Source of the DNA: an uncultured Chloroflexia bacterium
GTDB taxonomy: Bacteria > Chloroflexota > Dehalococcoidia > UBA2247 > RBG-13-53-26
Reading direction: 5' to 3'
NCBI GenBank assembly: GCA_963720375.1
Contig: CAVRFM010000015.1
Coordinates: 39,988 to 103,987, forward strand
Length of the DNA stretch: 64,000 nt
Below are positions 35,095 to 46,742 of the stretch, one piece after another. Within the stretch, counting starts at the first letter, position 1; each line of letters begins with the position of its first letter. The position numbers and the translations under genes were made by a program. The notes below the pieces were generated by a model. That model was not told where the DNA came from. It did not search any database and worked only from the letters and a program-made list of their open reading frames with translations.

Positions 35095-35684
35095 TCTCTA
35101 CGAGCCAAGTTATGCCCATATTCGTGTCCATATTCCCTCACAAAATGCCCCTGATCAATGTCGCCGTCAGCATATTCTGACACTTTTGCTAACAATTTGC
35201 TAACCACCATACACACGGCCGATTCCATGCAGATCTTTTGCACACCCCCCGCAGCTTTGGGCTACCTCTATTATCCTCGCTGTTGCACACAATAGCATCT
35301 GCTTACTATCACTACTAAATAGGCCTGCTATCCATCCACAGAACGAAGAGAAATAGTGCAGTGATACTCATAATGCAGCTAATGTGCAGTGCTGCTGGCA
35401 CTGCCGAGATCATAGGAGTGAAAATGAGGACGTTCCTTAATTACTACTGATCTTTTGATCTTTGCCTGTTGCCTTCTCCAACTCTAGTAGGGTCTTTTAT
35501 CGACGGATTGCCCAAGGGTGTCAGCCCTATCTAGAGCGCTGATTTAGCCAAGGTAGCATTACATGAAGACTTACTGGGCTGTGCCCTGCAAATCAGACCA
35601 TCATTGAACCAACATGCGGCGGCTTGCCTGTGCTGGTGTCCTTTGTACGGAAGAAGAGGTGTGACTCCAAGGTCTAGAAACAAG

Positions 35685-36077
35685 CTATGCGTTTGCTGAG
35701 TGGGGCTTCTTTATTTTCATTACGCTGGCTCTAAAACGAAGATACTTCAAGTACTCTGTCAGTTCCTCAATTTCGTTAGGCGTGGCGGTTGAGAGAATAT
35801 CTGGTTGTGATTGGGGAGGCGTGTGGAAGGATATAATCCAGTCGAACTCGGGTGTGTAGCCAGCTTTCTTCTGCAAAACTTGCACTGGCACGCCGAGTAT
35901 GATTGCGAGTTGAAGTAACTCAGGTTGCCTCGGGCGCCTGTCACCTTTCTCCCATCGGCAGACGGTGCTGAGAGATCTGTGCACCTTCTCACCCAAGTCA
36001 TCCTGTGACATTGGGACTGGCTGTCCAAGCCTAGTCTCACGGAGAAGATCTCCGAATTCTTTCCAGCGGTTAGGCAT
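35685..36077 (-). CDS. HTH_XRE-family transcriptional regulator with a C-terminal extension, divergent from the HD-protein operon
   Basis: MSQDDLGEKVHRSLSTVCRWEKGDRRP...LLQLAIILGVPVQVL helix-turn-helix. Confidence 0.75.
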   Translation of the reverse strand: MPNRWKEFGDLLRETRLGQPVPMSQDDLGEKVHRSLSTVCRWEKGDRRPRQPELLQLAIILGVPVQVLQKKAGYTPEFDWIISFHTPPQSQPDILSTATPNEIEELTEYLKYLRFRASVMKIKKPHSANA

Positions 36078-36132
36078 GATGGTGAGACTCCTTGTTGATA
36101 CTGCGTTGCGATTTTATGTTCTTTTTTACTCT

Positions 36133-36173
36133 TTGTCAATACTTACGGCAACAATATTGACAAAATGTATAAT
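36133..36173 (+). promoter_or_regulatory. Perfect 9-bp inverted repeat TTGTCAATA-N13-TATTGACAA (candidate operator) abutting a TG-TATAAT extended -10 element for the downstream 146-aa / HD operon
   Basis: Inverted-repeat arms at 36133-36141 and 36155-36163. TG at 36166-36167 and TATAAT at 36168-36173. Lies in the divergent intergenic region between the XRE regulator and the operon. Confidence 0.5.
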
Positions 36174-36264
36174 AGTGGTAATCTGTTTGTTGTAAGGGCG
36201 TGGTTCCCCTATAATTGGAGCCCCACCGTCAGTCCGGTGGTCTCAGGAAGAAGGAGGTGGGATC

Positions 36265-36705
36265 TTGCCTAGGACAGTTAGTGCGGATTCCCAAACTGGG
36301 CACCTCACGCTCTATGATAGTGTTGTAGCAGCGATAGGGGGGATCCACGAGGATCAAGCTAGCATGCAAGATCAGAGGATCCCCGTGGAGGATTGCTACC
36401 GTGCCTTCAGCCTTCTTGCATCCGAGTTTCCAGAGAGCTTTCCGGGTGTCTATTTTTCCCGGCGGAGCGGAGTCCCATATTCCAGAGATATCGAGGACGT
36501 GTTGTTCCAGGCAGGGGCATGGAGGCTCATCGAAGATAATAACCCTGACTACCGATATTTCACAGTACCCGCGGCGACCAGAAGACTGATCAAGGAACAG
36601 CTGAGCAAGATTCACAGTGGCAAGACGGGGGATCTTGAGCAAGTCTCCCTACGATTCAAATCTGTGCTAGAGGAACTGAAGCGGGTTGAGTCCCACAGCC
36701 TGTGA
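36265..36705 (+). CDS. Hypothetical protein (146 aa) whose 3' end overlaps the start of the HD-domain gene
   Basis: ORF follows the extended -10 promoter. Overlaps the next ORF by 20 nt in a different frame, suggesting co-transcription. No recognisable motif. Confidence 0.55.
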   Translation: MPRTVSADSQTGHLTLYDSVVAAIGGIHEDQASMQDQRIPVEDCYRAFSLLASEFPESFPGVYFSRRSGVPYSRDIEDVLFQAGAWRLIEDNNPDYRYFTVPAATRRLIKEQLSKIHSGKTGDLEQVSLRFKSVLEELKRVESHSL

Positions 36706-38215
36706 CGCCCTAGCAGAAGAAGTGAACTCCGCGGTTACGGAGATCCTCGGTGACTATAAGCCAAGAAAGATCAGGGACCCCAAGGTCATCCGAGACACCG
36801 CATTTGGCTTTAACCTGTTCCACAAGCATGAGATCAACTTGCTCGATTCGCCGCTTATGCAGCGGTTGCGGCAAGTACGTCAGACGGCTCTAGCCTTCTA
36901 CACCTATCCCTCATCAGTGCATACGCGCTTCGAACATTCCCTTGGTGTCACTGTACTCGCGCAACGCATGCTAGATGCCCTTCGGCAGCGTAAACCCTCC
37001 ACCGCTAGTGATGTCGCCTGCATGGAGGTTCGCCTAGCTGCATTATTGCACGATGTCGGTCATGGTCCATTCTCCCACGCATCTGAAAAGGTCTACAGTT
37101 CCCTCGACCAAATTAAGCGGGCAAAGGAAGAGAACCCCCTGCTAAAAGACAATGAGGCGCACGAAATCCTTTCCTACTTTGTGATCAAGTCATCCAAGTT
37201 CAACGAACTGTGGAGCACCATTCTTGCGAAGTATCAATTGGGTGATAACCCCATCAACCTTGGCGAGATACGCCTTGATCATGTTGCCGAGATGATTCTT
37301 GGTCATCATCCAACGCCCCAACTTAAGTACTTAGCCCAGATTGTGAACGGTCCTCATGATGCGGACAAGCTTGATTACATTACGCGCGATGGTTATTTCA
37401 CTGGTTTACGAACGGCGATCGATCTAGATAGGCTCTTCCTATGTCTGGGGGTCTACGAAAGCGACTCCGGCGAATGCCAATTGTGTGTAGATTTGAGTGG
37501 TGTGACGGCACTTGAGCAGATGCTATTCAACAAGATGCAACTCTATACATCAGTCTATCATCACCATAAGGTTCGCGCGGCTTTCCGTTCGTGTGTTGCC
37601 ATCATTGATGCATGCCGTAACAAGAAGCTGAAGGCGATCGGAGGATCGGAACTCGGTAGTCCGGTTGATTTCATGAGGATCGACGACGGCGCTATTTTGA
37701 GCGCCCGATCGACAGGGGATGCTGACCTCGACAAATGTCTTGCCAATTTGCGAAATCGCATTCTTCCGATGCGTGCTCTGGTACTGTGCTCAGACTCAGT
37801 GGATGATAACGCCTCTCGTTTTCTTCTGGCACGTATGCGGCGGGATACCTCCACAGCCAACGCTCTGCGCGAAGAAATCGCAACCAGAGCTAAAGTCGAC
37901 AACTCGCACATTCTAGTTGATTTTCCGGAAGAGCCACGTTTCATGAGCACAGCGCTCGGCAGTCTTGTTAGGGTCAGTCCTCAAGATGTAGTCCGCCTCA
38001 ACTCGATATTTCCAGTAGGGGGATGGGTGAGAGGTCATGCTGAACACAGATACAGAGTGTATGTATTCAGTCCCTATGAGTCGGAAGAGGCAGTGGCGAA
38101 AGCAGCATACGCCATACTGAGAGAAAAGTACGGGATCAAACCAAACAAAATGGCCTTCTTCCTTGCCAACCATACGCCGACATTCGTGGCATCGCTCCAA
38201 CTGGGGAATTCGTGA
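36686..38215 (+). CDS. HD-domain dNTP triphosphohydrolase-like protein (dGTPase / SAMHD1-type HD phosphohydrolase), 509 aa
   Basis: HTRFEHSLGV...LLHDVGHGPFSH and GPHDADKLDYITRD motifs of the dGTPase-like HD family. N-terminal IRDTAFGF...QRLRQVRQ segment as in this family. Lower-GC context. Confidence 0.8.
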   Translation: MSPTACDALAEEVNSAVTEILGDYKPRKIRDPKVIRDTAFGFNLFHKHEINLLDSPLMQRLRQVRQTALAFYTYPSSVHTRFEHSLGVTVLAQRMLDALRQRKPSTASDVACMEVRLAALLHDVGHGPFSHASEKVYSSLDQIKRAKEENPLLKDNEAHEILSYFVIKSSKFNELWSTILAKYQLGDNPINLGEIRLDHVAEMILGHHPTPQLKYLAQIVNGPHDADKLDYITRDGYFTGLRTAIDLDRLFLCLGVYESDSGECQLCVDLSGVTALEQMLFNKMQLYTSVYHHHKVRAAFRSCVAIIDACRNKKLKAIGGSELGSPVDFMRIDDGAILSARSTGDADLDKCLANLRNRILPMRALVLCSDSVDDNASRFLLARMRRDTSTANALREEIATRAKVDNSHILVDFPEEPRFMSTALGSLVRVSPQDVVRLNSIFPVGGWVRGHAEHRYRVYVFSPYESEEAVAKAAYAILREKYGIKPNKMAFFLANHTPTFVASLQLGNS

Positions 38216-38285
38216 GATCGCAAGCGGTGCCAGTGCGATGGTACTACATTCGCCGCCTAAGTCCGTCAGCTTGCCCGCTATCCCT

Positions 38286-39200
38286 CTAGAGATCAACCTG
38301 GACGGAATTGTTGGTGCCGGCGCGTACCGCCATCATTTGTGAAGCATAACTCTCTGGCACTCGCATTTGATGGCCGAGTGCCGTCTTCTCATCAAAGCGA
38401 TGCACGGCGGCTTGCTGTAAACCCGGTGCAATATGGCTGTACGTGTCGAGCAAAAGTGATGGATATACTGGAATGCCACAGCTTGCCTTAAACGACTTTT
38501 GGGGTGTATTCCCTATTTGCCATATGGATGTAGACATAATCTCCAGGACTTGACGTCCTCTGCTAGCCGTCTGATATCATCCGAGGTGACTTCCAGTTAC
38601 ACGCATCCCGATAGTGCTTTTACACAACAAGTGCCCAATTGGGGCAAGGGCAAGACTACTCATCAAAGGGGGAGGTAGCAAATGGCGAGACAGTGTAAAA
38701 CAGTAGAGATAGTGTACAACGCAAGAGGTCGAGATGTCTTGACATGGTGTATAAAGACAGCTTTTCTCTCCTTGATAACACTGGGGTTCTACTTGCCTGT
38801 TGCCGCAAATAAGCTTGTGAGATATCTGTGCGAGCACACAAAGATACGCATAGACGAGTCAGAGGTCTCAGGAACGTAGTTCGCAGCCTTGGCTGCTAGC
38901 AACCTGCTGAACATGAAATGGCATTGGTTGGTATTTTACAGATCGAGTGTGTCACTACAGAGAGAATCTCATATCAGTCAACAAGACATAAAGTAAACCC
39001 CTTGACCTGGGAAACAGGGACGGTTGTAAACTCATGAAAGGCTTTTCGGGGGCAACCCTTCTAAATATAAATGGAACCAATCCTCAAGAGCAACGCAACA
39101 TAAAGATAAGCCCTTGACCAGCCCAAGGAGGGCAGTTCTATACTTATCAAGCCGCATCCTCGGAGAGAAGGCTTTATTCGGTAATTTCTCGCTTCTTAAC
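38286..39200 (-). pseudogene. Decayed tyrosine recombinase (phage-type integrase) gene remnant
   Basis: Minus-strand frames give ...PKVV*GKLWHSSISIT (LGHSSI box with an in-frame TAA), then a shifted frame gives LLDTYSHIAPGLQQAAVHRFDE (catalytic-Tyr box). Upstream frames are broken. No intact ORF over 90 aa. Confidence 0.5.
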
Positions 39201-39253
39201 TAATTCCGAATCCTCACGTCGCAGAGCAAGACTTTTTAGCTCTAAAGGGGGGT

Positions 39254-40570
39254 ATGAAAACAGCTAAAGAGACTTGGGAGACTGCCAAAGGGGCCCTTCA
39301 GGTTCAGGTTAGCAAAGCCAACTTCGACACTTGGCTAAAGGACACTGTAGGGATCAGTCACCAAGGAAATCAATTTGTAATCGGAACTCCCAGCGCTTTC
39401 GCCAAGGAATGGCTGGAAAAGCGTCTTCATTCTTTGGTAACGAAGGTGCTCATCAGCATTGTAGGGCATGAGATTGAGGTTCAGTTCCAGGTCTGCCCGG
39501 ACCAGGACTCTGTCTGGCAGGGCCAGGACCACTCACAATCGAAGCTGCCATTGCCAGTGGGCAACCCGAGGTATACTTTCGAAAACTTCGTTGTCGGGGG
39601 TTCAAACCGTCTTGCCTACGCTGCTGCATTGGGGATATCTGAGGAGCCAGGGCGGCAGTACAATCCGCTTTTCATCCACGGTGGATCCGGCCTGGGAAAG
39701 ACCCATCTTTCCCACGCGATAGGGAATGAAGCTTCCGAAAACGGATTCAAGGTCGTTTATACTGGCAGCGAGCAATTCACCAATGAGTTCATAAGTTCAA
39801 TCAGGGAGAGAAGGACAGAGGAGTTTCGCAGCAAATTCAGGAACGCTGACATTCTCGTCATAGAGGACATCCAGTTCCTGGTTGGCAAACCCTCGACACA
39901 GGAAACACTGTTTCACACCTTCAATGAACTGCATGACACCAATCGCCAGTTGGTTATCACCAGCGATCGCCCTCCAAAGGCGATGACTACCCTGGAGAGC
40001 AGCTTATGTTCCCGCCTCGAAAGCGGGCTTATTGCCCAAGTTGAAGCACCTGACCTGGAAACACGTTTGGCCATCCTTCACGCAAGGGCCGAGGAACAGC
40101 AGGTTGTCATCGACGAAGCCGTATTCGATTTCATCGCCCAGCGTTGCCAGCGAAATGTCAGGGAACTAGAGGGAGCCCTGACTGCGCTTATCGCCGATGC
40201 AAAGATGTCACAGCAGCGTCCTACACTGGAGCTGGCGCAGGAGGCTCTGCGCGATATGCCTTCGGATAATTTAGGCTCATATGCTACTACCCCGGCATCG
40301 ATATTGAAGGCAGTGGCCGACCACTTCCAGGTGAGTTTAGAATCCCTGAAAGGCCGTAAGAGAGACAATCGATTAGCCATGGCGCGACACATCGCCATCT
40401 ACCTTGTACGAGAGAAGACAAATTGCCCCCTGCAGGATATCGGCAAATTGCTTGGCGGCAGAGACCACTCCACTATTCTCAGGGGCTATCATAGAATCGC
40501 CGGCACAGTTTCTACTGATCCCGCAGTGCAGAGAAACATCCATCAGATTGTGGCTAATCTTCCCACTTAG
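39254..40570 (+). CDS. dnaA: Chromosomal replication initiator protein DnaA
   Basis: Walker A GGSGLGKTHL, AAA+ sensor motifs and the C-terminal DNA-binding HTH (ARHIAIYLVREKT...LGGRDHSTIL). Confidence 0.95.
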   Translation: MKTAKETWETAKGALQVQVSKANFDTWLKDTVGISHQGNQFVIGTPSAFAKEWLEKRLHSLVTKVLISIVGHEIEVQFQVCPDQDSVWQGQDHSQSKLPLPVGNPRYTFENFVVGGSNRLAYAAALGISEEPGRQYNPLFIHGGSGLGKTHLSHAIGNEASENGFKVVYTGSEQFTNEFISSIRERRTEEFRSKFRNADILVIEDIQFLVGKPSTQETLFHTFNELHDTNRQLVITSDRPPKAMTTLESSLCSRLESGLIAQVEAPDLETRLAILHARAEEQQVVIDEAVFDFIAQRCQRNVRELEGALTALIADAKMSQQRPTLELAQEALRDMPSDNLGSYATTPASILKAVADHFQVSLESLKGRKRDNRLAMARHIAIYLVREKTNCPLQDIGKLLGGRDHSTILRGYHRIAGTVSTDPAVQRNIHQIVANLPT

Positions 40571-40767: not shown

Positions 40768-41373
40768 ATGAATATAGGGGTGTTTGGAGGCACCTTTGAT
40801 CCAGTCCACCGTGGACATATTGCTGCGGCCCAAAAGGTGAAAAGTGTTCTTGGCCTGGAGACGATTTTCTTTGTCCCGGCAGGGCAGCCTTGGCTCAAAG
40901 CAGATATTCCTGTTTCCCCGGCGAGGCACCGGGTAGAGATGGTACGTCTTGCCATTGCTGGTAAGAGATACTTCCAGATATCTACTACTGAGGTCGACAG
41001 GCCTGGCCCCTCCTTTACTGTTGACACCATTGATGTGCTGCAAAGGCAGCTGGGCGCCGCAGCAAACCTGTGGTTCATTTTGGGGAGTGACACGCTTTCA
41101 GACCTGCCGCGATGGAAGGAGCCGACCCGCCTCATACAGATTTGCCATCTGGTAGCATTCACCAGACCGGGTTTTGTCCCTCCTCCGCTGGAGTGGCTCG
41201 AATCATCTATCCCGGGTATTTCCAATCATGTTACTTTCGTAGAGGTACCGCAAATAAATGTCAGTGCCTCTGATATTCGACGCCGGGTAGCACAGGGTGC
41301 TTCCATTCGCCGGATGGTACCTGGAGCTGTGGAAAAGTATATCCTGGAACACGGATTGTATGTGTCCCCCTAG
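40768..41373 (+). CDS. nadD: Nicotinate-nucleotide adenylyltransferase
   Basis: GVFGGTFDPVHRGHI nucleotidyltransferase motif. Confidence 0.9.
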   Translation: MNIGVFGGTFDPVHRGHIAAAQKVKSVLGLETIFFVPAGQPWLKADIPVSPARHRVEMVRLAIAGKRYFQISTTEVDRPGPSFTVDTIDVLQRQLGAAANLWFILGSDTLSDLPRWKEPTRLIQICHLVAFTRPGFVPPPLEWLESSIPGISNHVTFVEVPQINVSASDIRRRVAQGASIRRMVPGAVEKYILEHGLYVSP

Positions 41374-41647
41374 GTTGTGTGGGCTGATCAAGTTGAGCGT
41401 TATTCATATACGGATACCCAAGAAACGTTGGTATAGTCCAAGAAGGTGGTGCTAAATGAGATGCCCCAAATGCGGTTATTGCAGCTTTGATGAGGGATGT
41501 AACCATGCCTCTAGCTGATAGAGACTACATGAGAAAAGAACATCCTCCTGCTTGCACCTGCGTTGAGTGCGAAAGGCGAAGGGCAAACAAGGGCAGACGG
41601 CGCACGGGGGAATCTCTCTGGAGTAGAACAATTGGGAGGCTGTTCTC

Positions 41648-42193
41648 TTGGATGCGCTGATGGATGGAGACGTATCAATGTCGCAGGAACGTGATAACGC
41701 TCTCACTAAGGTAGAACTGGCTCGCTACTTCCTCGAACTCATGAAACGTATTGAGAACAGCAGGGCACCTTTGCTACAGGGGAGCACTGCTCTGAGTGTC
41801 CTACAAGAGTACACTTCCTACTTGGATGGATTCTGGGCTGAGTGCTACAGTGCCACACGCTATTTCGATGATGTCAATCCTAAGTGTGCAAAGGCACTTA
41901 AAGACTTTCGAGAAAAAACGCAGGGAGATTTCTACGCATGGGGTACTGGTAAGCGTTCCATATCCGTTCACCACAAACCAGTTGAGCCAAAGAGGGAAGG
42001 CTATATGCCGCCACGAGGAGACAACATTGGTGGGCAACTCTTAGAATACGACCCCCCAAATTGGAACAAGATCAATTCCAAACTGAACGACTATTACTAC
42101 TTCACTGATGATCCTTCGGAGCAGCCGATAACTAGGCAGTGTGAGAGTCACTTAGCAGAACTAGAGAAGTTCATAAAGCAGAATTGTCCATGA
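41648..42193 (+). CDS. Hypothetical protein (181 aa; the start may be the Met at 41678)
   Basis: ORF with no recognisable motif. Lies upstream of, and co-oriented with, the protease gene. Confidence 0.5.
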   Translation: MDALMDGDVSMSQERDNALTKVELARYFLELMKRIENSRAPLLQGSTALSVLQEYTSYLDGFWAECYSATRYFDDVNPKCAKALKDFREKTQGDFYAWGTGKRSISVHHKPVEPKREGYMPPRGDNIGGQLLEYDPPNWNKINSKLNDYYYFTDDPSEQPITRQCESHLAELEKFIKQNCP

Positions 42194-42227
42194 CTGGCAC
42201 CTATGAGGCAAGATAAAATGAATATCA

Positions 42228-43088
42228 TTGATCGGGGATATCAATATGCGCGTACCTGACGAGGTTCGCCAATGCGTCGTGTTTGTGGGGCTTGGAGACG
42301 GCAAGGGAGGAGTGTCATTCAAAGGGACAGCTTTCTTCGTTAGTGTACCTTCCAAGAGCAAACCTGAAGTTAGTTACCTATACTTGGTAACAGCCAAACA
42401 TGTGGCAGCCTTACTGCAAGACAAACCATTCTTAATCCGAGCCAACACGAATGATGGGAAGTCATGCGTAATTGGAGGCGCAAGAGTACATTGGTGGTAT
42501 CATCCCACCGATCCTTTCGTAGATGTAGCCATCATCTCTTGGGTACACCCCGAAAACATGCCCCTTGACTATCTTGAATACAAACACATTCCAACTACAA
42601 TGTTTTTGTCCGATGAAGCTATATATAGTCGTGCTATCGGCACAGGGGATGAGGTATTCATCACTGGGCTTTTTGCACATCTGACAGGCTCATCAAGAAA
42701 CCTGCCAATAGTCCGCATTGGCAACATAGCCATGTTCCCTACAGAGCCAGTACCGACACGTATCGGCAACATCGAAGCTTATTTGATCGAAGCTAGATCA
42801 ATTGGAGGTTTAAGTGGTTCTCCTGCCTTTGTCATCCAAACAGCTCCACCTGAAGTTGGCAAGCTTTACCTTTTGGGATTGATGCATGGTCACTGGGATA
42901 TCCCCCCAGAGGCAAAGAACGACCAACTGGTAATGGACAATGATCACTATAAGCAGGTGAATATGGGCATAGCGATTGTAATTCCAGCTAAGAAGATATT
43001 GGAGGTTATGAACCAAGAAATACTAGACACATGGAGAAGACTAGAGGATCAGAAGATGCAGAAAGAACAAGTACCACCGCCAATGTGA
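42228..43088 (+). CDS. Trypsin-like (chymotrypsin-fold, S1-type) serine protease
   Basis: Catalytic-triad context VTAKHV (His), DVAII (Asp) and GGLSGSP (Ser). Confidence 0.65.
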   Translation: MIGDINMRVPDEVRQCVVFVGLGDGKGGVSFKGTAFFVSVPSKSKPEVSYLYLVTAKHVAALLQDKPFLIRANTNDGKSCVIGGARVHWWYHPTDPFVDVAIISWVHPENMPLDYLEYKHIPTTMFLSDEAIYSRAIGTGDEVFITGLFAHLTGSSRNLPIVRIGNIAMFPTEPVPTRIGNIEAYLIEARSIGGLSGSPAFVIQTAPPEVGKLYLLGLMHGHWDIPPEAKNDQLVMDNDHYKQVNMGIAIVIPAKKILEVMNQEILDTWRRLEDQKMQKEQVPPPM

Positions 43089-43223
43089 AGTATGAGGATT
43101 GAAATATGAATAACGCTGAAGTTGATGAAGCCTCGCTCTGAACACTATAATCTACTGGCTGGTCTAACCGAGAGTATTAGGGAATCGGACTCCATCTAAG
43201 TTAGACTACTCTAGTTAATCATT

Positions 43224-43679
43224 ATGCCTACTCTTGCAGTCAAGTTGGTCCATCCGGCCGCGAAGCCACCTGGGAAGATGACTCCAGGGAGTGCCGGCCT
43301 TGACCTTTACGCAGCGGAAAGTGTGGAGGTTCCGCCTACCCATTGCGAGCCCGATGGACGTGCTGAAGTCGGCAGAGCCCTTGTATCGACAGGAATTGTT
43401 ATAGAGTTGCCTCATGGAACGGTTGGCAGGATAGCATCCCGGTCCGGGCTGTCAGTTAGGGCAAATATAGAGGCGGGAGCCGGGTGGATTGACAGTGACT
43501 ACCGCGGAACGGTTATGGTGGAGTTGAAGAACTTCGGTTCGAATCCCTACCGCATCAACCAGGGAGACCGTATCGCTCAATTAATGGTACTACCGGTTGT
43601 GGACGTTGAAATAAGTGTTGTGACCGATATTAGAGAAACGGCACGAGGGTCATCAGGGTTTGGTTCGACTGGCCACTAG
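43224..43679 (+). CDS. dut: dUTP diphosphatase
   Basis: SAGLDL...RSGL...GWIDSDYRG...dUTPase motifs. Confidence 0.9.
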   Translation: MPTLAVKLVHPAAKPPGKMTPGSAGLDLYAAESVEVPPTHCEPDGRAEVGRALVSTGIVIELPHGTVGRIASRSGLSVRANIEAGAGWIDSDYRGTVMVELKNFGSNPYRINQGDRIAQLMVLPVVDVEISVVTDIRETARGSSGFGSTGH

Positions 43680-43778: not shown

Positions 43779-44483
43779 GTGGGGGAGAACCGAAGGCCGA
43801 GTCTTGAAAGGCTTATGACTATGACTGAGAAGTCTATGAGTGTGACATTGATTGAAGCCAGGGACCTGCCGGAAGCGTGGTTTCTCTGCCTGCGCAGCGT
43901 TCTCGCGGAGGGTTATGAGTACCGTATAGATCGAGGGAGTTTTGAGGGGCAGCGCAGAAAGGAACTTGACTTGGCTGTAGTTCAGATACGCCAACCGGGC
44001 ATACGGCCGCTGGTACCTGACGTACCGCAGGGTGTTCCCCCGCCAACGACTATGGAGTATGTCGAGGCCTACTTGCCCTATCTCATGACTTCCTGCAAAG
44101 AAAAAGGCGAGCAGTACACTTACGGAGAGGACCTTGAATCGCAGATTCCTGAAGTAATCCGGATGTATAAGGAGGGCGGCCACAATACAAATCAGGCGTA
44201 CATGGCGGTGGGCAGCCGGGAATCTATCTATCTGGGGGATCCACAATGCCTGAGAGGCATACACACCAGGATCCGTTATGGTCGCTTCCACTTTGTGGTT
44301 TACTTCAGATCCTGGGACCTATGGGGAGGCTTCCCGTCCAATCTTGCCGCGCTGCAACTTATGAAGGAGTATATGGCGACCGAGATCGGGGTTCCTGACG
44401 GTGAGTTGATTTGCATTAGCAGTGGGATGCATCTGTATGAACATAGTTGGGACTTGGCAAAGCTCGCGGCACGTATAGATTAA
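43779..44483 (+). CDS. Thymidylate synthase ThyA-family protein (short, archaeal-like form)
   Basis: HFVVYFRSWDLWGGFPSNLAALQLM aligns with the ThyA [23 protein letters not shown] segment. DPQCLRGIH aligns with the active-site PCH region. 234 aa. Confidence 0.65.
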   Translation: MGENRRPSLERLMTMTEKSMSVTLIEARDLPEAWFLCLRSVLAEGYEYRIDRGSFEGQRRKELDLAVVQIRQPGIRPLVPDVPQGVPPPTTMEYVEAYLPYLMTSCKEKGEQYTYGEDLESQIPEVIRMYKEGGHNTNQAYMAVGSRESIYLGDPQCLRGIHTRIRYGRFHFVVYFRSWDLWGGFPSNLAALQLMKEYMATEIGVPDGELICISSGMHLYEHSWDLAKLAARID

Positions 44484-44522
44484 GAGTAGTCCGAACATCT
44501 CCAAATTGTAAACCGACACGTA

Positions 44523-44777
44523 ATGGGATATACTAATCTTGATTTTCGTTTGGGAGGTGGTTTTGTGGAGCAATTCGTGCTGCCCAAATGTCAGAAGTGC
44601 AGTAGTGGCGATCTGGTGCCTCTATCTGATTTCGGTAGCCAGGGTGCGCCGATCCATTACAAGGCATGGGTATGTACAAATCCCGATTGTGGGTTCAACT
44701 TGAAGATAAGGAATGGTGACGTTTACATAAACGAGCCGGTTATCAGTGGGGCAATGCACAATTCCCGAGCACGTTAG
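44523..44777 (+). CDS. Small zinc-ribbon protein
   Basis: CQKC...CTNPDC four-cysteine arrangement. Confidence 0.4.
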   Translation: MGYTNLDFRLGGGFVEQFVLPKCQKCSSGDLVPLSDFGSQGAPIHYKAWVCTNPDCGFNLKIRNGDVYINEPVISGAMHNSRAR

Positions 44778-44798: not shown

Positions 44799-45506
44799 GT
44801 GAGCTGGTGGGCCCAGGTAGGCGAGTTTAAGGGCAAGTTTGTCGATTTAGTCTTTCCACCCCGTTGTGTTGGCTGTGGGAAGGATGGTGCTTTCATCTGC
44901 TCGCCATGTTGCGGGACTATCGCTCGCCTTACGCCTCCGCTCTGTCCCATGTGCAGCAAGCCACTACTTCAGGAGGATTATTGTCCCTCTTGCCGGAGGT
45001 TAAGACTGGAGATCGATGGTATCCGTTCACCCTTCGTTTTTCAGGGCACGGTGCGTCGGGCCATTCATCAGTTCAAGTACAGGAACTTTAAGGCGCTGGC
45101 TCTTCCACTCTCGCAGTTGCTGGCTCAGTATTTGGAAACCAAGCCCCTGCCTGGGGATGTTCTTGTCCCGGTTCCGCTTCATTCCCGTCGGTTGCGTGAG
45201 CGAGGGTATAATCAATCCGGGCTCTTGTCTCGGGAACTCGGGAAACTGCTTGGTCTTCCAGTCGTAGAGGATTCGCTAGTCAGGCTTCGGGACACGCGGG
45301 CTCAAGCCAGGACTTCTGATGCCGAAGAGCGTCGAGGTAATGTACTGGGGGCCTTTAGCTGCCGAGATGAGAGGTTGAAAGGGAGACGGGTACTTCTCGT
45401 TGATGATGTGTGTACTACAGGGGCCACGTTGAATTCCTGTGCCATCGCCTTGAAGGGAGCTGGCGCCAGCTCTGTTTGGGGTTTGGCCTTAGCTAGGGAA
45501 GGATGA
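44799..45506 (+). CDS. ComF-family protein (double zinc ribbon plus phosphoribosyltransferase domain)
   Basis: CVGCG...CSPCC...CPMC...CPSC ribbons and a [14 protein letters not shown] PRTase motif. Confidence 0.8.
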
Positions 45507-46742
45507 GTATGAAAGAGTTGCCGAAGAAAGACCCGGAGATTGCCTCACTAATTAAGAGGGAAGAGGAACGGCAGCAACGCAAGCTGGTGTTCATCGCTGC
45601 TGAGAACCACACCACTCGGGCGGTACTGGAGGCACAGGGCTCTGTCCTTACCAACAAGTACGCCGAAGGCTACCCGGGGCGCCGCTACTACAGTGGTTGC
45701 CAGGAAGTAGATGAGGTGGAGAGAATAGCAGTTCTCAGGGCGAAGGAGCTCTTTCATGCTGAGCATGCCAATGTTCAGTCTCACAGTGGAAGTCAGGCCA
45801 ATGCGGCGGTTTATCTTGCCTTACTCAACCCCGGGGATAAGGTAATGAGCATGAGCCTGGCTCATGGGGGACACCTCACCCACGGAAGTCCGGTCAGTTT
45901 CTCTGGAAAGTTATATAGATTCATTCATTATGAAGTAAACCGGGAAACGGAGCGGCTTGACTATGACGAGGTGGAGCGCCTGGCCAAAGAACATAGACCG
46001 AAGCTGATTGTGGCGGGAGCCAGTGCCTATCCCAGGATTATTGACTTTGAGAGGTTTCATCATATTGCTGAAGAGGTGGGGGCGCAGCTTATGGTCGATA
46101 TGGCTCATATAGCTGGCCTGGTGGCTGCTGGAGTACATCCTTCACCGGTACCCTTGGGCGCAGGTAGTCACTGCGACCACACAAAAGACTCTGCGTGGGC
46201 CCCGGGGTGGCTTTCTTCTTGCTAAGCAGGGGTTGGGCAAAATCCTGGACTCCGCTGTTTTCCCTGGCACGCAGGGTGGCCCCCTGATGCACGTCATTGC
46301 TGCGAAGGCAGTGTGTTTCCATGAGGCAATGCAACCCGAGTTTGTTACTTACCAGCAAAAAATCCTGGAGAATGCCAGGGTTTTGGCTGATGAATTGCAG
46401 AAGTTGGGTTTCCGGATCGTTAGCGGAGGCACAGATAATCATCTCCTCCTTATCGACCTTCGCGGGACAGGGATAACGGGTAGGGTAGCGGAGGAAGCCC
46501 TTGATAGTGTTGGCGTCTCTGCCAACCGGAATGGCATCCCCTTTGATCCTCTTCCACCGCAAACCACGAGCGGATTGAGGCTTGGGACTCCTGCAGTGAC
46601 TACAAGGGGACTCGGTCCGCAGGAGATGAGACAAATAGCCTCGCTAATCCATAGAGTGCTGACCAATCTCGGGGATGAGAAGATAAAACTTGAGGCCTCT
46701 CAGGAAGTGGAGGGGATCACCCGCCGCTTTCCGCTGCCCTGA
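45503..46742 (+). pseudogene. glyA: Serine hydroxymethyltransferase GlyA, split by one frameshift near 46153-46157 (ORFs 45503..46225 and 46233..46742)
   Basis: ORF1 matches SHMT up to HPSPVP and then diverges. The +1 frame continues [22 protein letters not shown]...SAVFPGTQGGPLMH (PLP-lysine region) into ORF2. Confidence 0.85.

What the first reader, a model, noticed from the sequence alone, without database searches (positions are those of the whole stretch)
41456..43088. Uncharacterised cluster: two cysteine-motif mini-ORFs, a 181-aa unknown protein and a trypsin-like serine protease
Downstream of nadD the composition is again lower-GC. Two tiny ORFs (41456-41518, MRCPKCGYCSFDEGCNHASS; 41528-41659, MRKEHPPACTCVECERRRANKGRRR...) precede a 181-aa ORF with no recognisable family and a 286-aa protein with an S1-type catalytic triad (TAKHV / DVAII / GGLSGSP). 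There is no signal peptide or TM segment on the protease, so a cytoplasmic protease paired with an unknown partner could be a toxin-like or effector-type module rather than a housekeeping protease.
Basis: partly seen in the sequence, partly recalled or inferred. Interest (0 to 1): 0.55.

Follow-up and report, generated by a model that had tools for sequence, protein, structure and literature searches.

The report
Stray transposon-cargo serine protease gene
The "cluster" is not one module: the protease is a strain-specific, single-gene insertion from a large unnamed family of cytoplasmic trypsin-fold proteases that in many other genomes rides inside an IS1595-type jumping gene. The genes next to it are an unrelated, very rare zinc-ribbon and 171-aa pair.

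The parts
41456..41518 (+). Mini-ORF 1 (20 aa, MRCPKCGYCSFDEGCNHASS). Probably the N-terminal CxxC knuckle of a frameshifted Zn-ribbon gene.
   Evidence: ORF list. Its CPKCG codons align with the CPHCG codons of the intact single ORF in L086. The sequence is identical in L001, and the 41546-43164 stretch is identical in L088.
41487..41660 (+). Mini-ORF 2 (57 aa from TTG 41487, 43 aa from ATG 41529). It carries CTCVEC and the conserved C-terminus GESLWSRTIGRLFSWMR. It is the C-terminal half of the Zn-ribbon gene, in a different frame from mini-ORF 1.
   Evidence: Four of the 5 nucleotide differences from L086 in the last 17 codons are synonymous in this frame (read). Gene callers placed a 50-aa and a 59-aa gene at the same position upstream of the P0122 and P0123 homologues.
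41678..42193 (+). Predicted helical, with a disordered middle. The C-terminal 30 residues are almost invariant.
   Evidence: Only 3 homologues were found and all start at MSQ. There is no Pfam, NCBIfam, PHROG, PADLOC or PDB match. The AF2 model is poor, with pLDDT 55. Against L001 there are 7 synonymous and 3 non-synonymous codon differences.
42192..43099 (+). 908-bp strain-specific insertion that holds only the protease gene. It is replaced by 15 bp in L001.
   Evidence: blastn of the window against L001. The junctions were read. L086 is collinear with L001 and split against the window. GC is 45.6% against 53.0% for the window.
42202..42224 (+). Left copy of an imperfect direct repeat (TATGAGG...ATGAATA) at the insertion junction. 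The right copy is at 43091-43112.
   Evidence: Read. It could be a remnant target duplication or recombination microhomology, or it could be chance. It was not tested statistically.
42218..42245 (+). Possible out-of-frame remnant (MNIIDRGYQ) of the ~25-35-aa N-terminal extension (xxDxRLGxxxxYYLxxxxDIx) that many family members carry.
   Evidence: Upstream regions and their translations were compared. The alignment is only convincing for the last ~12 nt before the ATG. The rest is suggestive.
42246..43088 (+). Cytoplasmic PA-clan (chymotrypsin-fold) serine protease, 280 aa. H52 is at 42399-42401, D93 at 42522-42524 and S190 at 42813-42815. A GGGGA Shine-Dalgarno-like sequence lies 7 nt upstream.
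43122..43151 (+). Sigma-70-like promoter (TTGATG-18-TATAAT) of dut. It is conserved in L001 and L086, and it marks the right-hand core flank of the insertion site.
   Evidence: Promoter scan gave 10 of 12 matches. Conservation is shown.

Best explanation
The finding contains two unrelated units.

Unit A, 42192-43099. This is a single-gene insertion, acquired after the window strain split from its 98%-identical sister. It encodes a stand-alone cytoplasmic chymotrypsin-fold serine protease.
- The family is large, unnamed and horizontally mobile.
- In many genomes, mainly Acidobacteriota, the gene is the cargo of a 2.1-3.4-kb IS1595-family transposon. The layout is IRL, protease, then a convergent transposase, then IRR, flanked by 8-bp target duplications.
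- The window copy is a stranded cargo gene. It has no inverted repeats and no transposase, and its N-terminal extension is destroyed. The catalytic residues and a ribosome-binding site are intact.
- All of the above is shown.
- Inferred: the gene persists intact without its transposon in most genomes, has no fixed partner, and is related to PDC-S45 and to a Lamassu LmuA model in PADLOC. It therefore most likely acts on its own as a latent intracellular protease in host/mobile-element/phage conflict. It would be abortive-infection-like, in the manner of the Lit protease, cleaving a host or invader protein when triggered. It would not be a housekeeping protease.

Unit B, 41456-42193. This is a frameshifted Zn-ribbon mini-gene plus a 171-aa helical protein. 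The pair is lineage-restricted, its function is unknown, and it sits upstream of dut in relatives that lack the protease.
For: Insertion:
- The window segment 42192-43099 is replaced by 15 bp in L001. The flanks are ~98% identical.
- The more distant L086 (94% identical in dut) has the same empty junction.
- The segment is low in GC.

Fold and catalysis.

Family size and shape:
- 2,298 word-index hits.
- 9,564 clusters at 50% identity with E<=1e-3 and 3,007 with E<=1e-30. The 150 best listed are about 210-400 aa, consistent with a single-domain protein.
- Every source name is 'hypothetical protein'.

Patchy taxonomy: Dehalococcoidia, Bathyarchaeia, Acidobacteriota, Verrucomicrobia, CPR groups, Bradyrhizobium and Bifidobacteriaceae.

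No conserved partner: the only recurrent neighbour is an IS1595 transposase, in 27 of 80 loci. Its identity was confirmed with NF033547 at 209 bits against a cut-off of 75.

Transposon structure:
- 25-27-bp terminal inverted repeats, GGTAATTATCCCTTGACAGTAGGTAT, enclose both genes.
- 8-bp target duplications flank nearly all of the 22 elements, each at a different site. Two are in one MAG (L034 and L072).

Link to the window's subfamily: L085 is 65% identical to the window protease and sits in a housekeeping context. It keeps an IRL-like sequence (19 of 25) at exactly the modal 77 nt upstream of Met1, with no transposase nearby.

Not a pair.

Defence relation:
- PDC-S45 matches every member tested, at E 1e-13 to 1e-22.
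- A LmuA model matches at E down to 2e-7.
Against: Against the functional inference:
- PDC-S45 is one of 145 untested candidates, chosen because a homologue was seen embedded in a BREX, DISARM or type I RM locus. An IS-borne gene could be embedded there by transposition alone.
- The window protein's PDC-S45 score (52 bits) is far below that of true members (E about 1e-94 in PMC12429752).
- Among 140 immediate neighbours in 80 loci I saw almost no defence genes: 2 Cas1 and 2 UvrD-like.
- No homologue was found in 50,697 phage records or 72,556 plasmid records by tblastn.

Against the 'stranded IS cargo' history of the window copy:
- No inverted repeat is present within 6 mismatches, and no transposase lies anywhere in the 64-kb window.
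- The junctions are unusually tight: the insert ends 4-11 nt after the stop codon.
- The route of entry could therefore have been recombination rather than transposition.

No expression or activity data exist.
Confidence: 0.6

Rival explanations
1. One reading: the mini-ORFs, the 181-aa protein and the protease form one operon-like module, for example a toxin or effector with partners or an immunity protein.
For: All are on the same strand with short gaps and a shared lower GC. No terminator was predicted between them on the + strand.
Against: The protease is absent from the 98%-identical L001 and from L086, while the other genes stay in place. The 181-aa protein has 3 homologues and the protease has thousands. 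No co-occurrence was seen in any other protease locus fetched. The closest protease homologues sit in quite different contexts: after prfA, after a RelA/SpoT gene, and next to a FecR-like gene.
Confidence: 0.04
2. The protease is primarily a transposon function: an accessory or regulatory factor for IS1595 transposition, or an addiction factor that stabilises the element. Under this view the window copy is a functionless relic on its way to decay.
For: The cargo position is fixed. The reading frame is fixed relative to IRL, which reads in frame as GNYPLTVG followed by the extension. The distance is also conserved, with a mode of 77 nt. The window copy has lost its N-terminal extension.
Against: About two thirds of the loci (53 of 80) have no transposase within four genes. 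Even so, the catalytic His, Asp and Ser and about 25 other positions are kept in all 80 loci. The short form lacking the extension is shared by a whole subclade at 55-70% identity that includes Bathyarchaeia. That indicates long-term retention under selection rather than decay.
Confidence: 0.15
3. An ordinary lineage-specific cytoplasmic protease with a physiological role, such as regulated proteolysis or the stress response, that happens to be variably present.
For: It is a single-domain enzyme with housekeeping neighbours in many loci. No defence-island signal was seen.
Against: The taxonomic distribution is extremely patchy, with 57% identity between Dehalococcoidia and Bathyarchaeia copies. 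The gene is carried by transposons. It differs in presence between strains that are 98% identical. Its GC is atypical.
Confidence: 0.15
4. The difference from L001 is a deletion in L001 rather than an insertion in the window lineage.
For: Short direct repeats (TATGAGG...ATGAATA) flank the segment and could mediate a deletion.
Against: The outgroup L086 has the same empty junction and is collinear with L001. The segment's GC is 7 points below the flanks.
Confidence: 0.08

Closest known systems
PADLOC phage-defence candidate PDC-S45 (Payne et al., bioRxiv 10.1101/2024.01.29.577857)
   Same: A single-gene protein of about 290 aa. The homology is full length (window residues 27-261 against model positions 33-280 of 293, E=1.2e-14). 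Every family member tested hits it, at E 1e-13 to 1e-22.
   Different: The scores (47-78 bits) mark a sister subfamily, not membership. A true member in a Sinorhizobium meliloti prophage scores about 1e-94. PDC-S45 itself is untested. The window copy is not embedded in or next to any defence system.
IS1595-family insertion sequences that carry passenger genes. From memory of ISfinder, the ISNwi1 subgroup has ends of the form GGnnATTAT and gives 8-bp duplications. I could not check this here.
   Same: In 22-27 related loci the protease lies between 25-27-bp inverted repeats starting GGTAATTAT, alongside an IS1595 transposase (NF033547, PF12762 and PF12760), with 8-bp target duplications. A 684-bp cassette with the same type of inverted repeat and a 9-bp duplication carries a different gene in L001, 1.4 kb from the protease site.
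   Different: The window copy has no inverted repeats, no transposase and no clean 8-bp duplication. I found no paper that describes a protease as IS1595 cargo.
HtrA/DegS/DegP and the MamO protease domain (MEROPS S1C), and picornavirus 3C proteases
   Different: Sequence identity is 12-21% and there is no sequence-level match to any PDB chain or Pfam model. It has no signal peptide, no TM segment and no PDZ domain. It has an extra C-terminal region (the HGHW motif and a long terminal helix) that the matched domains do not cover.
Lit protease of the E. coli e14 prophage (from textbook knowledge). This is a functional analogy only.
   Same: A single-gene cytoplasmic protease carried by a mobile element. 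It is dormant until it is triggered. That is the mechanism I infer here.
   Different: Lit is a zinc metalloprotease and is unrelated in fold. No trigger or substrate is known for the present family.
Lamassu LmuA with a protease-type effector domain (PADLOC model PDLC03855)
   Same: The N-terminal ~150 residues of that model match family members at E down to 2.3e-7. The window protein matches at E=0.0019.
   Different: The LmuA model is 425 positions long, and Lamassu also needs an LmuB SMC-like ATPase partner. Here the protein is the protease domain alone and there is no such neighbour.

Membership tests
PA-clan (chymotrypsin-fold) serine peptidase | Two-beta-barrel chymotrypsin fold | tested here: met
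PA-clan (chymotrypsin-fold) serine peptidase | Catalytic His, Asp and Ser in that order, with a GxSGxP nucleophile motif | tested here: met
   H52, D93 and S190 (GLSGSP) are invariant in 35 close homologues and in all untruncated sequences from 80 genome loci. The triad geometry in the model was not inspected.
PA-clan (chymotrypsin-fold) serine peptidase | Proteolytic activity | not testable with these tools
   This needs biochemistry.
Pfam Trypsin / Trypsin_2 (PF00089 / PF13365) | Score above the family gathering threshold | tested here: not met
   The window protein has no Pfam hit at E<=0.1. Only 2 of about 240 listed relatives carry a precomputed PF13365 hit.
HtrA/DegP-type housekeeping protease | Signal peptide or membrane anchor, plus C-terminal PDZ domain(s) | tested here: not met
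   The maximum KD19 score is 1.13 and there is no hydrophobic N-terminus. There is no PDZ or other Pfam domain. There is no sequence-level match to HtrA chains in the PDB.
PADLOC PDC-S45 | Match to the PDC-S45 HMM at member-level score | tested here: inconclusive
   E=1.2e-14 at 52 bits, over the full length. A published member scores about 1e-94. PADLOC's own threshold is not available here.
PADLOC PDC-S45 | Demonstrated anti-phage activity | not testable with these tools
   The authors list the PDCs as untested candidates.
IS1595-family transposon (as cargo) | Terminal inverted repeats and an IS1595 transposase flanking the gene in this window | tested here: not met
   No IR-like sequence within 6 mismatches of 25, and no transposase by tblastn anywhere in the window. 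No flanking inverted repeat was found.
IS1595-family transposon (as cargo) | 8-bp target-site duplication at the insertion | tested here: inconclusive
   A 7-bp TATGAGG occurs at both junctions (42202-42208 and 43091-43097), but the empty sites in L001 and L086 do not contain it cleanly.
IS1595-family transposon (as cargo) | Homologues lie inside complete elements (IRs, transposase and TSD) | tested here: met
   22 loci have both IRs, nearly all of them with 8-bp TSDs. 27 of 80 loci have the transposase.
Two-gene toxin/effector-partner module with the 181-aa protein | Co-occurrence of the two genes across genomes | tested here: not met
   The two genes are separated in L001 and L086. There is no 181-aa homologue in any other protease locus fetched.
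Lamassu (LmuA effector) | Adjacent LmuB SMC-like ATPase, and full-length LmuA architecture | tested here: not met
   Only a weak partial LmuA hit (E=0.0019, residues 9-109). The neighbours are the 171-aa gene and dut.

The most novel reading that the evidence does not exclude
This unnamed family of cytoplasmic chymotrypsin-fold proteases (about 9,500 clusters at 50% identity, in bacteria and archaea) is the dedicated cargo of an IS1595-type transposon, with its reading frame starting at the inner edge of the left inverted repeat. Under this reading it represents a new kind of transposon-borne, single-protein conflict system: a protease that is triggered by, or protects against, invading DNA or phage. 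It would also explain why its relative PDC-S45 turns up 'embedded' inside defence operons. The window would hold a domesticated short form that has shed both its transposon and its N-terminal regulatory peptide.
Probability: 0.25. Interest if true: 0.65.

Novelty: new member of a known kind. Interest (0 to 1): 0.4.

Why it matters
For this window the practical result is a corrected annotation. A supposed four-gene cluster turns out to be a strain-specific stray cargo gene next to a rare zinc-ribbon/171-aa pair. Both sit in a small plasticity zone around dnaA-nadD-dut.

More generally, three points came out:
- A very large "hypothetical protein" family can now be described as a cytoplasmic PA-clan serine protease.
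- That family is frequently mobilised as IS1595 cargo.
- IS carriage gives an alternative, non-defence explanation for why a related protein became a "guilt-by-embedding" defence candidate. That is a useful caution for that discovery approach.

If the protease does act in phage or mobile-element conflict, it would be an unusually small, partner-less protease effector, and that is directly testable.

Tried and rejected
Tried, with no useful result:
- Pfam, NCBIfam and PDB sequence searches found nothing for the protease or the 181-aa protein.
- The structure prediction of the 181-aa protein was too poor (pLDDT 55) to justify a fold search.
- The afdb50 fold library was not available.
- tblastn of the window protease and of the Bradyrhizobium homologue found nothing in phage records. 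In plasmid records it found only one weak hit, at 26% identity. IMG/VR gave one locus, with no IS features. BFVD gave only RNA-virus 3C-like proteases, which share the generic fold.
- Rfam found no RNA family in 38-45 kb.
- The literature searches found no description of the protease family, and none of a protease as IS1595 cargo. The ISfinder review I wanted for the subgroup end-consensus is not held.
- The DNA of the contig carrying P0122 (509-aa, then 50-aa, then 168-aa gene) could not be fetched. Whether that 509-aa neighbour resembles the window's 509-aa HD protein is unknown.

Considered and rejected:
- That the MNN... mini-ORF right of the insertion is a leftover protease N-terminus. 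It is the conserved dut promoter region.
- That the 83-aa ORF at 38286-38537 is an integrase remnant. That was my impression from its C-terminal motif, but it has no Pfam or phage tblastn support.
- That a second cargo gene is conserved between the protease and the transposase. The intervening ORFs are heterogeneous and mostly have no family.
Full report
OBSERVATION

They sit between nadD (40768-41373) and dut (43224-43679), downstream of dnaA (39254-40570).

The lower-GC remark is correct. The protease segment is 45.6% GC and the mini-ORF/181-aa segment is 47.9%. The whole window is 53.0%, and the neighbouring core genes are 52-55%.

Several details need correcting:
- The ATG of the second mini-ORF is at 41529.
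- The two mini-ORFs are in different frames.
- The '181-aa' protein most likely begins at ATG 41678, giving 171 aa. All three homologues start there, at MSQ.
- The protease most likely begins at ATG 42246, giving 280 aa. This is the start of the database copy and of most homologues. A GGGGA lies 7 nt upstream.
- None of the three products has a TM segment or signal-peptide-like N-terminus.

THE KEY COMPARISON

The 181-aa protein has only three homologues among 5.8 billion proteins. One of them, 98% identical, lies on an 872-kb metagenomic contig (L001) that is ~98% identical to the window over more than 15 kb.

blastn shows three clean presence/absence differences around the replication-origin genes:
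- Window 35135-38521 (3.4 kb) is replaced by 121 bp in L001.
- Window 42192-43099 (908 bp, exactly the protease gene plus its short leader) is replaced by 15 bp in L001.
- L001 carries an extra 684-bp cassette between the thyA-like gene and the next gene.

A third, more distant relative (L086, 94% identical in dut) also has Zn-ribbon ORF, then 170-aa gene, then dut, with no protease. Its junction matches L001's.

With the outgroup and the sister both empty, the protease is a recent insertion in the window lineage. An identical copy of 41546-43164 occurs in an independent read-set assembly (L088), so this is not an assembly artefact.

THE PROTEASE

It has no Pfam, NCBIfam or PDB sequence match.

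An AlphaFold model built on 35 homologues is confident (pLDDT 88, pTM 0.87) and is unambiguously a chymotrypsin/PA-clan fold:
- Foldseek gives the same picture.

His52, Asp93 and Ser190 (G-L-S-G-S-P, the GxSGxP nucleophile motif) are invariant in the 35-sequence alignment and in all 80 genome loci. About 25 other positions are invariant too, including a family-specific GHW motif.

The lack of HtrA features is also confirmed: no signal peptide and no PDZ domain.

THE FAMILY

- The word-index search found 2,298 homologues.
- An exhaustive profile search found 9,564 clusters at 50% identity with E<=1e-3 and 3,007 with E<=1e-30. The 150 best listed are about 210-400 aa, consistent with a single-domain protein.
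- Every source name is 'hypothetical protein'.

In one genome per species, 229 loci were confirmed. The best 80 come from Dehalococcoidia, Bathyarchaeia (57% identical to the window protein), Acidobacteriota (the majority), Verrucomicrobia, Saccharibacteria, Peregrinibacteria, Bradyrhizobium, Bifidobacteriaceae and others.

The closest homologues (65-70% identical) sit alone in unrelated housekeeping contexts: after prfA, after a RelA/SpoT gene, and beside a FecR-like gene.

I called ORFs crudely (longest ORF first) in the 80 loci and clustered the four genes on each side. Only one neighbour family recurred: a ~317-aa protein, in 27 of 80 loci. It is an IS1595-family transposase:
- Pfam DDE_Tnp_IS1595 plus Zn_ribbon_IS1595.
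- NCBIfam NF033547 at 209 bits against a cut-off of 75.

Other immediate neighbours were miscellaneous. Defence genes were rare: 2 Cas1, both in Bathyarchaeia, and 2 UvrD-like, out of 140 neighbours.

THE PROTEASE IS TRANSPOSON CARGO

In these loci the protease and the transposase are convergent. Both are enclosed by near-perfect 25-27-bp terminal inverted repeats, GGTAATTATCCCTTGACAGTAGGTAT.

Twenty-two loci have both repeats, 2.1-3.4 kb apart. Nearly all are flanked by an 8-bp direct duplication of a different target sequence. Two copies lie at different sites in one MAG (L034 and L072). These are hallmarks of real transposition by an IS1595-type element.

The left repeat sits a conserved distance upstream of Met1 (mode 77 nt). 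It is usually in frame and reads GNYPLTVG. It is followed by a ~25-35-aa N-terminal extension, xxDxRLGxxPRYYLxxPxDIx, that is conserved at the protein level across phyla.

L085 links this to the window's subfamily. Its protease is 65% identical to the window's and sits in a housekeeping context. It keeps the extension and an IRL-like sequence (19 of 25) at exactly 77 nt, but has no transposase.

The window copy has gone further:
- No IR within 6 mismatches.
- No transposase anywhere in the 64 kb.
- Only a possible out-of-frame stub of the extension, MNIIDRGYQ at 42218-42245.

An imperfect direct repeat (TATGAGG...ATGAATA) flanks the insert, but I cannot say whether it is a target duplication, a recombination footprint or chance.

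The extra 684-bp cassette in L001, 1.4 kb away, is bounded by the same type of IR (24 nt, 83% complementary). It has a 9-bp duplication, ATTAAGAGT, and carries a different gene, a 215-aa Cys/His-rich protein with no transposase. IS1595-type elements or their transposase-less derivatives have therefore been active at this very locus in this lineage.

THE MINI-ORFs AND THE 171-aa PROTEIN

In L086 a single ORF encodes a Zn-ribbon...CPHCGSAKIYYNSHFRSWKCASCEKSFSSQGESLWSRTIGRLFSWLR.

In the window and L001, which are identical here, the pieces are split:
- The CPKCG knuckle is in mini-ORF 1.
- The second Cys motif and the conserved C-terminus are in mini-ORF 2, one frame over.

Four of the five nucleotide differences in the last 17 codons are synonymous in that frame, as read. 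This argues that the C-terminal part is, or recently was, protein-coding.

Gene callers found a 50-aa and a 59-aa gene at the same position upstream of the other two 181-aa homologues.

So the conserved unit is Zn-ribbon mini-protein plus 171-aa protein. In the window the mini-gene is frameshifted, or it needs a frameshift to be read as one product. The 171-aa protein shows:
- No detectable family.
- A low-confidence helical model.
- A near-invariant C-terminal 30 residues.
- 7 synonymous against 3 non-synonymous codon differences from L001.

Its function is unknown. I can only say that it is a lineage-restricted accessory pair, independent of the protease.

HOW THE PROTEASE MOST LIKELY WORKS

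Shown: it is an intact, apparently translatable, cytoplasmic serine-protease gene. It is accessory, horizontally mobile, partner-less and often transposon-borne.

Inferred: it works alone as a latent intracellular protease in conflicts among host, mobile elements and phages, in an abortive-infection-like way. The Lit protease is the classic precedent, from textbook knowledge.

The support is indirect:
- The catalytic residues are retained in the two thirds of loci that have lost the transposon. This argues for a benefit to the host rather than a purely transpositional role.
- Every member tested is a full-length relative of PADLOC candidate PDC-S45, at E 1e-13 to 1e-22. Several also match the N-terminal region of a Lamassu LmuA model.
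- The window locus is a small plasticity zone that also holds a strain-specific XRE / 146-aa / HD-domain (dGTPase-like) insert.

Against this inference:
- PDC-S45 is one of 145 untested candidates. It was selected because a homologue was seen embedded in a BREX, DISARM or type I RM locus. An IS-borne gene could land there by transposition.
- I saw no defence-island enrichment among immediate neighbours.
- The family is essentially absent from sequenced phages and plasmids.

The main rivals are a transposon-serving role and an ordinary physiological protease. I give the structural and evolutionary part high confidence and the defence-type mechanism roughly one chance in three.

COMPARISON WITH KNOWN SYSTEMS, AND NOVELTY

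The protein is a member of the PA clan by fold and catalytic motif. It is not a member of Pfam Trypsin/Trypsin_2 by score, and it is not an HtrA/DegP-type protease. It is a relative of PDC-S45 rather than a member.

The transposons in related loci are IS1595-family by transposase, IR and 8-bp duplication. Their GGTAATTAT ends fit my recollection of the ISNwi1 subgroup in ISfinder, which I could not verify.

I found no paper that describes this protease family or a protease as IS1595 cargo.

For the window itself this is a new member of a known kind: an accessory protease gene of mobile origin. The family-level observation of a dedicated IS1595 cargo protease is the more interesting by-product.

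LIMITS

- Neighbour genes in fetched loci were called by a crude longest-ORF rule.
- Pfam and PADLOC neighbour counts cover only the nearest gene of at least 90 aa on each side.
- The 80 loci are the best of 229 found by a motif pre-scan, not a random sample.
- The model coordinates could not be inspected for triad geometry.
- No expression or activity data exist.

Noticed in passing
window 35135-38521: A 3.4-kb strain-specific insertion, replaced by 121 bp in L001. It carries an XRE-type HTH protein (35685-36077, minus strand), a 146-aa unknown protein (36265-36705), and a 509-aa HD + HD_assoc_2 protein (36686-38215). The HD protein has weak dGTPase and anti-phage-dGTPase hits. It may be a small defence-like module next to the origin region.
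   Followed up: partly
L001 9947-10633 (the empty site in the window is at about 44476-44487): A 684-bp cassette bounded by 24-nt IS1595-type inverted repeats and a 9-bp duplication, ATTAAGAGT. It carries a 215-aa Cys/His-rich protein with an HNH-like motif by eye and no Pfam hit, and it has no transposase. It looks like a non-autonomous cargo element of the same IS type that carries the protease elsewhere.
   Followed up: partly
window 45503-46742: glyA (SHMT) is split into two ORFs (45503-46225 and 46233-46742). L001 has an intact 412-aa gene. This is a frameshift, a pseudogene or a sequencing error.
   Followed up: no
window 38215-39253: About 1 kb upstream of dnaA has no long ORF. It contains a 65-aa C-terminal fragment of a DUF898 protein (38682-38879). 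It also contains an 83-aa ORF (38286-38537, minus strand) whose end (...DTYSHIAPGLQQAAV...) reminded me of a tyrosine-recombinase C-terminus. Neither Pfam nor phage tblastn supported that idea.
   Followed up: partly
L004 8807-9841 and L005 8811-9872: In two Bathyarchaeia MAGs the protease gene is convergent with, and abuts, a Cas1 gene (Pfam Cas_Cas1, E=5.8e-53). Whether this is a CRISPR locus, a casposon or coincidence was not examined.
   Followed up: no
L016-L081 (for example L045 7887-10353): In the IS-borne copies the left inverted repeat reads in frame (GNYPLTVG) into the protease's N-terminal extension, and in many loci the frame stays open beyond the repeat. The repeat also contains a perfect TTGACA. 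Either the start codon sits at the inner edge of the repeat, or long and short protease forms are made from different transcripts.
   Followed up: partly
L086 93-676 against window 41607-42191: The 170/171-aa gene is mosaic between lineages. Its middle is only about 50% identical at the protein level, while its last 30 codons, the end of the mini-ORF and the flanking DNA are 83-94% identical. This suggests allelic replacement or recombination within conserved flanks at this site.
   Followed up: no
window 43779-44483 and 44523-44777: The thymidylate-synthase-like gene matches only the archaeal/methanogen-type model, and well below its cut-off (TIGR03283, 77 bits against 175). It is followed by an 84-aa Zn-ribbon-like protein with no family.
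   Followed up: no
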